Part shown: positions 38,937-45,419 of the stretch, in pieces | How the letters are laid out: every line of letters starts with the position of its first letter | Position numbering within the stretch: the first letter of the stretch is position 1 | Program-made: the position numbers and the translations under genes | From: Candidatus Latescibacterota bacterium | Lineage (GTDB): Bacteria; Latescibacterota; UBA2968; SICM01 | Direction of reading: 5' to 3' | NCBI GenBank assembly: GCA_965217865.1 | Contig: CBDCJO010000002.1 | Location: forward strand, 736,001 to 800,000 | Length of the DNA stretch: 64,000 bases | The notes under the pieces: generated by a model | Databases searched by the model: none | What the model saw: the letters and a program-made list of their open reading frames with translations, nothing else | Told to the model about the DNA's origin: nothing

Positions 38937-40670
38937 TCACCCATCCGTCGTCATTGAGAACTCCCGGCCCATTTCGTATCCGTCCAGCCGCTTCAGGGGG
39001 ACCACTCGGAAGTAATCGTCTCCCCTTCCCTTCCATGCCCTCAGGTCTTTGCGATGCCCCATCCGCTTTTGGAAGGCCCACTCGCTTGTCCGAAAGTATC
39101 GATTGAAAGTATCCCAGAAGGCCAGTCCGTCGGCACCCGCTTCATAATAATTGATCGCGATCTCACGGAATGCCCTGGGGGGCATCCGGCGCGGATAAAC
39201 ATCGATATAAATCTTGCTCCTCGGATCACGGGGGAGATCTGTGAATTCGCGTATCTTGGATTGAACCCCCGTACCGTCGTGGTTCCCGTAAACGTGCAAA
39301 TGCGCGACCAGATAGTCCACCAGCCCCTCCTTCAACCAGGTCGGGACATCCAGGGCGTGGAACAGAGATTCCGCCAGACTCGATTGGCCGATCTCCGGAA
39401 GCGCACTGCTTAAGTTGACCGGCACCAGGTAGCAGCTGGGAATGTAGCGGCGCTTGGCTTTTCCGACCTCATCCAGCATCTCTCTGATCTCGCGGAGAAA
39501 CTGTGTGACAAAGCTCGCCCGGGTCCGCCATACCCGCTCGTCGTTGATGGGAACCCGGCGCATGTCCTCACCATATTCCTTCTCAAAGGCCTCGCACACC
39601 GGCTGTTCGTAGTAGGCAAACGGCTGGGAGCGGCTGAACAGGGCGTTCACCCCGTCCGCCTTATAGTCCTCCACCCACTCCCGGAACAACCGCACGTAAA
39701 ACGCGCGCACCTCGGGAAAAGCAAACGACAGGTGGCGAATAGGTTCCCCGTCCGCGTACGTGCATCGCAAGTCGAGATGTTCCGCCATGAACATCCCCCC
39801 GTAATTGGCCATAAGATGTTCCGTCGGCAGCTGCGGACCGGAGAACCGATTCTGGGCAAACAGCTTGACGCCGCATTCGTGCGCCGCCGAGATGGCCTCG
39901 GCAAAAGGATCGATCCCCGAATCGACCAATCCGCGCAAAACCCGCCCCATACCTTCCTGGTCGAAATCCGGCCGGATGAACTCCCCGATTTTTGAAGGGT
40001 AGAACGTGATAGGCCCATAGGCCACAGCATACAGGGCGATGTCGAAATCTGATTCCCTGAGAGGTTCAAACTCCGCGATGAAATCCTCGTGTGTCGTAGG
40101 ACCCCACTGGAAGATGTTTCCTCCATCGTAATTGCCTATCAGCAGTTTGGTTTTCTCCGTGGGAAGCTCCGCCTTCCATGCCTCGAGGGCTTTCGGATCC
40201 ATCGGGACCAACCTCACGTAAACGATGCATGATTCTTCGTGCGACATCGTTCCGCGGGTAGGAGGCGAAAAGATCAGCTCCTGACGGGTCAAGTCCGCGC
40301 ATTTCCAGAAAACCTCCGTCACGTCGAAGGCGGTAAAGACCTTTTCCGGATAGCTTCCGTCCTTTCCGGGATCCGACTCCTCCGGGAGGATTCGGTTGAA
40401 GCCTAAGTCGTCCGAAAGTTTGACGCAGAGCGCACGCTGCTTTTTTTGGCCGTTAAACCCACCGTAATAGATCCCCAGGCGGATCTCGTGCCAACCCTCG
40501 ACTTCGGGATTCAGCGTCAGTGGCGGCGCATCGGTGCCAGGCCGCGTGAACAGCATCACCCCCCTGCCCTCTTCCACTTCGTAATCAACGGCAATCCACG
40601 TTCCGTGGCGGCCATCCCTGCTGATGGCCTCCGAAGGCTCACATCGGGTCAGATCGGAAATCCAGATCAT
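38937..40670 (-). CDS. Glycoside-hydrolase-like TIM-barrel protein (DUF187/GHL10-like)
   Basis: IDPFAEAISAAHECGVKL, LSFAFPEVR, YKADGV..FSR, GADGLAFWD; the ORF-track N-terminus is translated tandem repeat. Confidence 0.65.
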   Translation of the reverse strand: MIWISDLTRCEPSEAISRDGRHGTWIAVDYEVEEGRGVMLFTRPGTDAPPLTLNPEVEGWHEIRLGIYYGGFNGQKKQRALCVKLSDDLGFNRILPEESDPGKDGSYPEKVFTAFDVTEVFWKCADLTRQELIFSPPTRGTMSHEESCIVYVRLVPMDPKALEAWKAELPTEKTKLLIGNYDGGNIFQWGPTTHEDFIAEFEPLRESDFDIALYAVAYGPITFYPSKIGEFIRPDFDQEGMGRVLRGLVDSGIDPFAEAISAAHECGVKLFAQNRFSGPQLPTEHLMANYGGMFMAEHLDLRCTYADGEPIRHLSFAFPEVRAFYVRLFREWVEDYKADGVNALFSRSQPFAYYEQPVCEAFEKEYGEDMRRVPINDERVWRTRASFVTQFLREIREMLDEVGKAKRRYIPSCYLVPVNLSSALPEIGQSSLAESLFHALDVPTWLKEGLVDYLVAHLHVYGNHDGTGVQSKIREFTDLPRDPRSKIYIDVYPRRMPPRAFREIAINYYEAGADGLAFWDTFNRYFRTSEWAFQKRMGHRKDLRAWKGRGDDYFRVVPLKRLDGYEMGREFSMTTDG

Positions 40671-40683
40671 AATGCCCCTTCCC

Positions 40684-40873
40684 ATTCGTGATTCGTGATT
40701 CGTGATTCGTGATTCGTGATTCGTGATTCGTGATTCGTGATTCGTGATTCGTGATTCGTGATTCGTGATTCGTGATTCGTGATTCGTGATTCGTGATTCG
40801 TGATTCGTGATTCGTTTAATGAATGCAATGAGAATCGTGATTCGTGATTCGTTTAATGAATGCAATGAGAATC
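40684..40873. repeat. Perfect heptamer array (ATTCGTG)x18 plus partial unit, followed by a 37-bp tandem duplication
   Basis: Counted 40684-40815; TTAATGAATGCAATGAGAATC occurs twice 37 nt apart. Confidence 0.95.
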
Positions 40874-43799: not shown

Positions 43800-43979
43800 G
43801 GGTCGGGGAACGTGAGACGTCAGACGTGAGATGTGAAACGTGAAAAGAAGCAGTAGCAGGAAGAGCAAAGGCGGGGGCCAGAGGTCGGAGGTCGGGGAAA
43901 AGCCACGAGGTTTATCGGTTTCTCTTCGTCTTTGGGACAGTTCAAATTAAATATGTCATCCTACTATGTTAAAAGTCAA

Positions 43980-44190
43980 AGGGAATCTACAGATTGTTGC
44001 CTCACCGCTTTCAAACCCAACCAGCCTACTATTCGAGGTCACACGAAGCGCCACAAGTTATCGATCCGGAGGATTTTGGAGAGGATTCGGCACACTGAGC
44101 CACGGAGTAATCTAAAGCTCTTCAAGGATGACAACGCCGTTCCTCCCTCCGGATCGAAAGAGGTGTTTAAAAAGGGTGCGGACAGTCGTT
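43980..44190 (-). ncRNA. Putative bridge/seek RNA of the IS110 element
   Basis: 12-bp stem 44061-44072/44146-44157 encloses TGTCATCCT and GGCTCAG (minus strand), which match the reconstructed target; boundaries approximate. Confidence 0.7.
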
Positions 44191-44194
44191 AGGC

Positions 44195-45259
44195 TTAAAC
44201 CAGTCCCAGCACATAGGGCTCTTTGCGAATCAGGATCCCTCGGAGCCGAATAATTAGAATCCTGGCAATCGCGACAATAGCTCGTTTGGATCCGGCCCGA
44301 GTTTTGATCCGGTCATACTTTTCTCTCATCGCACCATCTTTTTTGATGACTCGCCATGCGGCCTCAACCAACAGGCACCGTAAGCTGGATCTGCCCTGAC
44401 GCGTGATGTGTCCAAACCGGAGGTTTTCCCCACTCGAATATTGTGAAGGCGTTAAGCCTATATAAGCGGCCAACTGATCAGCCTTTCGAAATCGTGCGAC
44501 GTCCTGCAGTTCCAACAGGAGCTCCATGGCACTGATCCAACCGATACCTGGCGTAGAGGTCAGGATCTCCACGCGATCCCGATATCCATCGCTTTTTGAA
44601 AGTTCCTTCAGCAGGTTCGTCTGCTTTTCGATCTGCTCTGACTGGAAGTCGAATTCATTCAGCAAGGTCTGAAAACATTCTTGCTGATACCGATTCTGAA
44701 ACCTGAAGGCTCTCAACTTATCGATAAAGACCTGGCTCCATTTGCCACTCGATTCTCGAGGCAATTCAATCCCATTCACCCGAAGCTCTGCTTTGATCCG
44801 ATTTTGAGTCCGAACCCGATTGCCGATGCACTGACGACGACGCCTGGACACTTGCCGATGCGCACGCTCTTCCACAGTCGGAACATATATGGCCTCTAAC
44901 TGGCCAGACTGTAGGCACTCAGCTAACTTTCCGCTATCCAGACGATCATTTTTCACCCGACTACCAGAGCGTTGAGGAATCAAATGAGGAGGCGTCACCC
45001 GCGCATCTACCCCATATTCGATCAGCCGATCATATACCCAAAACCCAAAATATCCTGCCTCGTAGACGACCGAGATCTGTCCCGCGTCGGAGAACCGGGA
45101 CAACAATCGCTCCAGGTCCTCCCAACGGCCACCAATGTTGTTGGAAAAAAGGACCAAACCATCTTCGGATCGAATGGTCACGTGCCAACTTTTGCGATGA
45201 AGATCGATAACCATAAAAAGACACTTGCCTTTCCAGGCCTGTTTCGAATATCTTCCCAT
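44195..45259 (-). CDS. IS110 family transposase/recombinase
   Basis: DEDD RuvC (IDLH, YEAG, KNDRLD), PGIG, GLTPSQYSSG (catalytic Ser), AIVAIAR; GGAGG RBS before ATG 45259. Confidence 0.95.
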   Translation of the reverse strand: MGRYSKQAWKGKCLFMVIDLHRKSWHVTIRSEDGLVLFSNNIGGRWEDLERLLSRFSDAGQISVVYEAGYFGFWVYDRLIEYGVDARVTPPHLIPQRSGSRVKNDRLDSGKLAECLQSGQLEAIYVPTVEERAHRQVSRRRRQCIGNRVRTQNRIKAELRVNGIELPRESSGKWSQVFIDKLRAFRFQNRYQQECFQTLLNEFDFQSEQIEKQTNLLKELSKSDGYRDRVEILTSTPGIGWISAMELLLELQDVARFRKADQLAAYIGLTPSQYSSGENLRFGHITRQGRSSLRCLLVEAAWRVIKKDGAMREKYDRIKTRAGSKRAIVAIARILIIRLRGILIRKEPYVLGLV

Positions 45260-45419
45260 CTTGAGCCTCCTGTGAGAGAGAGTTATTGTGAATCTACGGG
45301 ATTTCCAATAAACATATCCTCTCAAGCAGTGAGGCTCAACTACTTTTAACATAGTGACTGAGCCCCTTCACCGCGTTCAGGATAAACTCCGGCGAAGGAT
45401 CTCGATTTATGAGGTTTTT

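What the first reader, a model, noticed from the sequence alone, without database searches (positions are those of the whole stretch)
43954..45415. IS110 inserted in a REP-like repeat, with readable bridge-RNA guide segments
Seen: removing 43963-45359 rebuilds TGTCATC-CT-GAGCC..., the start of a REP-like repeat (TGTCATCCTGAGC...TCAGGATAAACTCCGGCGAAGGATCTC), with CT at both junctions. In the non-coding end, on the transposase strand, TGTCATCCT (44133-44125) equals left target + core (9/9), and GGCTCAG (44101-44095) is the reverse complement of core + right target (7/7). Both lie inside a 12-bp stem (44061-44072/44146-44157). ATAGTAG (44032-44026) is the reverse complement of the predicted circle junction CTACTAT; GTGAC (44042-44038) is a weaker left-donor match. 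Known: IS621 bridge RNAs and IS1111 seekRNAs use such guides, IS621 with a CT core. Inference: an intact RNA-guided recombinase with its own natural specificity for a genomic repeat.
Basis: partly seen in the sequence, partly recalled or inferred. Interest (0 to 1): 0.85.

Follow-up and report, generated by a model that had tools for sequence, protein, structure and literature searches.

The report
RNA-guided jumping gene targeting hairpin repeats
This is a 1.4-kb insertion sequence of the known IS110/IS1111 kind that sits at one fixed point in a family of small hairpin repeats; its non-coding end holds four short segments that change in step with its insertion sites and its own ends across dozens of relatives, so it likely uses a two-loop guide RNA to pick its target, making it a well-mapped new member of a known programmable class rather than a new system.

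Summary
The element (43963-45359) has IS1111-type anatomy: 11-bp sub-terminal inverted repeats, 7+3-bp ends, a downstream non-coding region and a predicted junction promoter. A related strain carries the exact empty site, and a second full copy sits at the same point of the same repeat family. Both target guides covary with insertion flanks in 32 diverged relatives (16 of 16 and 11 of 11 informative sister pairs). ATAGTAG is supported as a donor guide. The next base tracks the target base beside the core, like IS621's handshake guide (7 of 8 changes). GTGAC is not a guide: it is a hairpin arm. The second donor guide lies at 44060-44056 and has one mismatch here. The 12-bp stem is confined to a subclade and competes with the conserved donor loop. 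The target repeat clusters around small Ssn-like GIY-YIG genes but fails the published SRM consensus. 'Intact' is unproven: Gly17 is Val and one donor guide mismatches. No circle or RNA was observed. Verdict: new, well-mapped member of a known kind.

The parts
43954..43962 (+). Left half of the target repeat (TGTCATC) plus the CT core
   Evidence: empty site in run X7
43963..45359 (-). IS1111-type IS110-family element, 1397 bp (one CT/AG core counted inside)
   Evidence: second full copy at G000:C2:4650402-4651798 with 1 difference
43963..43976 (-). Right end: 11-bp sub-terminal inverted repeat (43966-43976) plus 3-bp extension (43963-43965)
   Evidence: sequence; 11 of 11 match to the left-end repeat
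43974..43979 (-). Predicted -35 box (TTGACT) of the junction promoter formed in the circle
   Evidence: pattern in 46 of 52 complete elements
44012..44146 (-). Predicted two-loop bridge RNA core: target loop about 44146-44080, donor loop about 44078-44012
   Evidence: RNAalifold; 25 pairs, 93.8% of cells paired, 16 with changes on both sides; expression not shown
44125..44133 (-). Target guide A (equals left target + core; LTG-like)
   Evidence: 259 of 352 matches against permutation mean 143, max 185; 16 of 16 sister pairs
44095..44101 (-). Target guide B (reverse complement of core + right target; RTG-like)
   Evidence: 225 of 288 against mean 134, max 162; 11 of 11 informative sister pairs, 5 ties
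44056..44060 (-). Second donor guide (LDG-like), with one mismatch at 44059 to this element's own left end
   Evidence: relatives with the same left end carry the matching TGAC
44035..44054 (-).
44026..44032 (-). Donor guide ATAGTAG (RDG-like; equals right end + core)
   Evidence: variable base matches the element end in 31 of 32 against 0.33 permuted; 6 of 7 parsimony changes
44025..44025 (-). Predicted handshake base after the donor guide; tracks the target base next to the core
   Evidence: 26 of 32 against 0.35; 7 of 8 changes match the flank, 8 of 8 the base encoded by target guide A
44061..44157 (-). Subclade-restricted 12-bp stem (44157-44146 with 44072-44061) that would sequester the donor loop's 5' arm
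44195..45259 (-). DEDD recombinase, 354 aa (D19, E67, D105, D108, S276; Val17 in place of conserved Gly)
   Evidence: PF01548, PF02371; NF033542 210 bits, cut-off 140
45342..45359 (-). Left end: 7-bp extension including the AG core (45359-45353), 11-bp inverted repeat (45352-45342), predicted -10 box TATGTT (45353-45348)
45360..45403 (+). Right half of the interrupted hairpin repeat

Best explanation
This is an IS1111-type IS110-family insertion sequence that sits at the CT core of a TGTCATCCTGAG hairpin repeat and likely moves by RNA-guided recombination, using a predicted two-loop bridge RNA from its downstream non-coding end. Shown: element ends, precise empty site, repeated use of one target point, catalytic residues, and guide-DNA covariation for both target guides and both donor guides. 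Inferred from IS621 and IS1111 work: the element excises as a circle; joining the ends creates a TTGACT-17-TATGTT promoter that transcribes transposase and RNA; the RNA is trimmed to about 44146-44012; the target loop pairs with both strands of the repeat and the donor loop with both strands of the circle junction; the DEDD/serine sites cut at the core; and the handshake base at 44025 favours strand exchange towards insertion. Read on the CT strand the guide layout equals IS621's. The repeat gives some 20 safe intergenic landing sites.
For: Coordinates and chance test. Empty site contig. Second copy in the same repeat at the same base. Repeat 13-mer 16 times against 0.32 expected. Domains and catalytic residues. 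Target-guide covariation by permutation and sister pairs. Donor and handshake covariation. Independent check in G076: 5 of 6 copies carry the matching donor guide TGAC (1 TGGC), and guide A follows the right flank between copies. Conserved two-stem-loop fold with guides in the loops. Junction-promoter pattern in 46 of 52 complete elements. IS1111 rules from PMC11187229.
Against: No circle junction in 8 runs of contigs and no usable RNA evidence. In single-sequence folding guide B is paired (P about 0.99) and the 12-bp stem blocks the donor loop; forcing the guides open costs about 11 kcal/mol. Donor-side sister-pair tests alone are not significant (2, 3 and 3 informative pairs, all concordant; p 0.25, 0.125, 0.125). 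This allele has Val17 and a donor-guide mismatch. Guide B matches flanks poorly in G076. For other IS1111 members a short target-only RNA sufficed for transposition (PMC11187229).
Confidence: 0.85

Rival explanations
1. seekRNA model: only the target loop (about 44146-44080) is needed; the element ends are read mainly by the protein through the inverted repeats, and the donor loop is accessory.
For: An 82-nt RNA sufficed for ISEc11 (PMC11187229); target-loop-only RNA is the main species and supports one transfer step for CazIS110-1 (10.1101/2025.10.25.684509). Here the inverted repeat is perfect, one donor guide mismatches, and the 12-bp stem favours a target-loop-only fold.
Against: The donor loop is the most conserved part of the RNA; its variable bases follow the element ends (6 of 7 and 8 of 10 changes) and the handshake base follows the target (7 of 8). 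Inverted repeats are imperfect in most relatives (mean 5.7 of 11 ungapped).
Confidence: 0.12
2. The mechanism is right for the family, but this particular allele is weakened or dead and was placed by an ancestor or in trans (not exclusive with the best explanation).
For: Val17 in 1 of 56 aligned proteins; runs X3 and X4 show Gly there; mismatch at 44059; both insertion sites also appear occupied in study P2, so they may predate Val17.
Against: Open frame, all five catalytic residues, perfect ends; the two full copies differ by one base; run X7 lacks the insertion, so the site is polymorphic among close strains.
Confidence: 0.3
3. The element picks hairpin DNA by shape or protein preference, and the RNA matches are chance or copied relics.
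For: The target is a hairpin repeat; the matches are short.
Against: 53 distinct guide pairs among 62 non-coding ends, each following its own flanks; many relatives' flanks show no such repeat.
Confidence: 0.02

Closest known systems
IS1111-group seekRNA elements (ISEc11, ISPa11, ISKpn4; PMC11187229)
   Same: Sub-terminal inverted repeats, 7+3-bp end extensions, non-coding region downstream of the transposase, junction promoter, top-strand target match 5' of the bottom-strand match; ISPa11 also targets a REP repeat.
   Different: Distant protein (best plasmid hits 32-37% identity; the named family among the 30 listed is ISSso6 at 34.5-34.8%); different target; a clearly covarying donor loop and handshake base, which that paper does not describe in the parts read.
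IS621 / ISCro4 bridge recombinases (PMC11208160, PMC11208158, PMC13626964)
   Same: DEDD + serine chemistry, two internal guide loops, dinucleotide core reading CT on one strand, handshake base after the 3' donor guide, REP-like target.
   Different: IS621's RNA lies upstream in the left end with only 2-3-bp inverted repeats; here it lies downstream with 11-bp repeats, and both genes run the other way relative to the core. Protein similarity is weak (E 7e-10 and 9e-11).
Ssn nucleases with SRM/NTS repeats (PMC11893778) and CGTC-tagged REPs (PMC3733652), as the class of the target
   Same: HGTCA-tagged hairpins packed on both sides of a small single-domain GIY-YIG gene (G000:C2:2606511-2606834).
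   Different: The repeat fails the published SRM consensus; GTCATCCTG does not occur in the main text of PMC3733652 (figures not held).

Membership tests
IS110 family (broad) | RuvC-like DEDD domain plus Transposase_20 domain with catalytic serine | tested here: met
   PF01548 E 3.6e-14, PF02371 E 4.1e-24; NF033542 above cut-off; D19, E67, D105, D108 invariant in 56, position 276 S or T in all
IS110 family (broad) | Site-specific insertion at a short core, no target duplication beyond the core | tested here: met
   Empty site skips exactly 1397 bases with 2 shared letters; 2 of 2 full copies at the same repeat position
IS110 family (broad) | Circular intermediate | tested here: inconclusive
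   No junction listed in contigs of 8 runs; contigs drop rare forms
IS110 family (broad) | Non-coding RNA bound by the transposase and needed for movement | not testable with these tools
   Only comparative support
IS1111 group | Sub-terminal inverted repeats of about 11-13 bp | tested here: met
   11 of 11 in this element; imperfect in most relatives
IS1111 group | End extensions of 7 bp (left) and 3 bp (right) | tested here: met
   45359-45353 and 43965-43963; rule from PMC11187229
IS1111 group | Long non-coding region downstream of the transposase | tested here: met
   232 bp downstream holding all guides, against 100 bp upstream
IS1111 group | Top-strand target match lies 5' of the bottom-strand match | tested here: met
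   On the transposase strand 44133-44125 pairs with the top strand and precedes 44101-44095
IS1111 group | Transposase falls in the IS1111 clade of a reference tree | tested here: inconclusive
   No tree with ISfinder references was built; nearest named family ISSso6 at about 35%; 354 aa is just above the 330-350 range given in PMC11187229
IS110 group in the narrow sense (IS621 type) | Bridge RNA upstream in the left end, only 2-3-bp inverted repeats | tested here: not met
   RNA downstream, 11-bp repeats
IS621-type bridge mechanism (works like) | Two guide loops plus handshake base after the 3' donor guide | tested here: met
   Comparative only; the target-loop handshake base is nearly untestable because its partner hardly varies
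Ssn-related motif (target repeat) | Match to the published degenerate SRM consensus | tested here: not met
   The rebuilt repeat does not match, and none of the 48 genomic SRM matches is a TGTCATCCTGAG repeat
Ssn-related motif (target repeat) | Flanks a small single-domain GIY-YIG gene | tested here: met
   6 motif copies near the genome's own gene; motif near 14 of 30 such loci against 30 of 3848 control windows of this genome
Ssn-related motif (target repeat) | Partner protein belongs to cd10448 and cuts the repeat as single-stranded DNA | not testable with these tools
   No CDD library; PF01541 hit only

The most novel reading that the evidence does not exclude
IS1111-type elements run the full IS621 two-loop and handshake mechanism, and in this subclade the upstream 12-bp stem is a built-in switch. 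Unprocessed or read-through RNA folds as a target-loop-only 'seekRNA' with the donor loop locked, and only trimming near 44146 releases the full bridge RNA. One RNA would thus reconcile the seekRNA and bridge models, in an element that parasitises an undescribed class of Ssn-nuclease repeats.
Probability: 0.15. Interest if true: 0.7.

Novelty: new member of a known kind. Interest (0 to 1): 0.4.

Why it matters
IS110/IS1111 recombinases are programmable tools for inserting, excising and inverting DNA, and it is debated whether IS1111-type elements use a donor loop at all. This family (1478 proteins at E <= 1e-30; nearest named IS family about 35% identical) gives a natural map of all four guides and a handshake base in an IS1111-type element, with 53 natural guide pairs, so the question is directly testable here. 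It also links RNA-guided insertion to GIY-YIG-associated hairpin repeats. Neither RNA guidance nor REP targeting is new, which caps the score.

Tried and rejected
GTGAC as donor guide: rejected. The 12-bp stem as family scaffold: rejected; strong only in the window, its truncated copy, L010 and L011 (p <= 0.001), weak in L041, L044 and three G076 copies (p 0.05-0.2). The first column-based test of target guide A gave only 100 against mean 75 (max 104) because the alignment was one column off for most rows; I re-anchored 29 of 32 rows by one column by hand. Rfam: no match at E <= 1. RNA runs X19 and X20 hold one short low-depth contig each (159 and 253 nt, depth about 2-3, 5 and 15 differences), which says nothing about expression. 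No circle junction seen. The genome-contig scan with a single protein gave only 4 loci. Host relatives rarely hold the element (2 of 61 and 2 of 168 genomes, G000 included). Earlier findings: nothing returned. Literature: no paper held 'Ssn', 'single-stranded nuclease' and 'IS110' together; 4 papers held 'IS1111' and 'handshake', and the passages read in 2 of them describe handshake only for IS621/IS110 orthologues. A weak TIGR-Tas hit (31.7 bits, cut-off 100) is shared-domain similarity. No structure was predicted.

Full report
Observation. Removing 43963-45359 rebuilds TGTCATC-CT-GAGCC. The two target matches (9 and 7 nt) occurred together in 1 of 100,000 shuffles of the 237-nt non-coding end. 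The boundaries are confirmed by an independent strain: a 201-nt contig of run X7 (depth 28) joins 43960 to 45358, skipping 1397 bases with 2 shared letters. So insertion adds the element and one core, and the site is polymorphic among close strains.

Anatomy. The minus strand encodes a 354-aa IS110 recombinase (PF01548 and PF02371; NF033542 at 210 bits) with D19, E67, D105, D108 and S276. On that strand the left end is a 7-bp extension including the AG core, then an 11-bp inverted repeat; the right end is the same repeat plus 3 bp. The long non-coding region is downstream. These are the IS1111 rules of PMC11187229. Joining the ends gives TTGACT-17-TATGTT, and such a pattern forms in 46 of 52 complete elements. 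The genome has a second full copy with one difference, inserted at the same base of a sister repeat, and two truncated copies. Both full copies are intergenic.

Relatives. I analysed 84 fetched loci plus the two full copies. Of these 86, 62 had a right end, 52 both ends, 45 both flanks, and 32 remained below 85% identity in the non-coding region. The rest were cut by contig ends or missed by the end motifs. Those motifs came from the window's own ends, so invariant donor positions are circular and only variable ones count.

Target guides. Guide B matched 225 of 288 positions against a permutation mean of 134 and maximum of 162. Guide A matched 259 of 352 against 143 and 185, after I re-anchored 29 rows by one column; before that it gave 100 against 75. 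In 16 disjoint sister pairs taken from a protein tree, own flanks beat swapped flanks in 16 of 16 for guide A and 11 of 11 for guide B, with 5 ties. There are 53 distinct guide pairs among 62 ends. The closest relative (L010, 84%) and this genome's truncated copy carry guide variants that fit other forms of the repeat.

Donor guides. The variable base of ATAGTAG matches the element's right end in 31 of 32 (0.33 permuted) and in 6 of 7 parsimony changes. GTGAC shows no covariation (p 0.87) and is the 3' arm of a conserved hairpin. The real second donor guide lies just 5' of that hairpin, at 44060-44056: 162 matches against a permuted maximum of 159 and 8 of 10 changes. Other elements with this same left end carry TGAC there: L010, L044 and 5 of 6 copies in G076. 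The window has TAAC, one mismatch. The base after ATAGTAG (44025) equals the first target base beyond the core in 26 of 32. Of its 8 changes on the tree, 7 match the flank and 8 match the base encoded by target guide A. This is the position of IS621's donor-loop handshake guide (PMC11208158; PMC13626964). Against this, sister-pair tests of the donor side had only 2, 3 and 3 informative pairs, all concordant but not significant alone.

RNA fold. Across 44 sequences two stem-loops with internal guide loops are supported: 93.8% of cells paired against 81.0% shuffled, and 16 of 25 pairs with changes on both sides (relatedness inflates this control). Read on the CT strand, the order LTG, RTG, LDG, RDG, handshake equals IS621's. 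It is strong only in the window, its truncated copy, L010 and L011, and uses the same bases as the donor loop's closing stem (-21 against -9 kcal/mol duplex). An RNA starting at 44146 folds the donor loop correctly, though guide B stays paired in single-sequence folding. Whether the stem is a control switch or trimmed leader is unknown.

Target. TGTCATCCTGAGC occurs 16 times against 0.32 expected; close variants give 18 + 14 + 2 sites. The repeats crowd both sides of a gene for a GIY-YIG protein of about 108 aa. The motif lies near 14 of 30 such loci from 121 related genomes, this one included, against 30 of 3848 control windows of this genome (kin are not independent). This is the layout of Ssn nucleases and their repeats (PMC11893778), but the repeat fails the published SRM consensus, so I call it Ssn-like only.

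Mechanism. Shown: ends, empty site, target choice, catalytic residues, covariation. Inferred: excision to a circle, junction promoter, trimmed two-loop RNA, pairing of both loops, serine-linked cleavage at the core, handshake-driven insertion. Not seen: circle or RNA. Activity of this allele is open. Val17 is unique among 56 aligned proteins, runs X3 and X4 show Gly, and one donor guide mismatches.

Comparison and novelty. It meets four tested IS1111 features; the protein's place among reference elements is untested (nearest named family ISSso6, about 35%; a YEAGYFG-bearing cluster without an ISfinder name is in the IS621 paper's Supplementary Table 1). It works like IS621 but is not of IS621's layout. 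RNA guidance, IS1111 donor-binding predictions and REP targeting are all published. What is added is a complete natural guide map with a handshake base for an IS1111-type family, and the link to Ssn-like repeats; my searches found neither in print, but the library lacks most subscription papers, including two Science papers on bridge orthologues seen only as references.

Papers seen: PMC11187229, parts 1-5 of 9; PMC11208160, passages and supplement searches (file 3 cut, file 2 unreadable, Supplementary Table 5 with group labels not seen, which bears on group placement); PMC11208158, PMC13626964, PMC11893778, PMC3733652, PMC9778887 and 10.1101/2025.10.25.684509, passages only. Verdict: new member of a known kind, interest 0.4.

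Noticed in passing
G000:C2:2605900-2607150 (L094): Dense array of head-to-head hairpin repeats around a small GIY-YIG gene; the protein reads RKK where a catalytic glutamate (REK, recalled motif) is expected, so it may be inactive.
   Followed up: partly
L001, L021, L027, L035, L036, L057, L061, L076: A clade of relatives inserts at GTT|AG|N behind palindromic DNA, which resembles the GTTRRRY core of integron attC sites (recalled motif).
   Followed up: no
L015, L016, L033, L043, L051, L055, L069, L077, L078, L083, L086, L087, L089: Several lineages share the left target TGGCA|AG with variable right sides; the element targeted is unknown.
   Followed up: no
L129-L134 (G076): Six copies with a right end about 200 bp longer, holding a long hairpin and a repeated motif; guide A differs between copies in step with the flank, guide B fits poorly.
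   Followed up: partly
window 45161-45256: Runs X3 and X4 differ from the window by a cluster of 6-8 bases here, several of which match the truncated copy on C1, hinting at gene conversion between copies.
   Followed up: partly
window 44116: The one difference between the two full copies strengthens pairing of guide B with the inner hairpin in the second copy.
   Followed up: no
L003 downstream of the element: A second partial donor-loop sequence follows the right end, possibly a relic of an earlier copy.
   Followed up: no
window 38937-40865: The long ORF begins with about six ITNHESR repeats, likely an intergenic repeat read in frame.
   Followed up: no
G000:C2, about ten places: A second, distant IS110 family (about 24% identity) is present in ten copies.
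   Followed up: no
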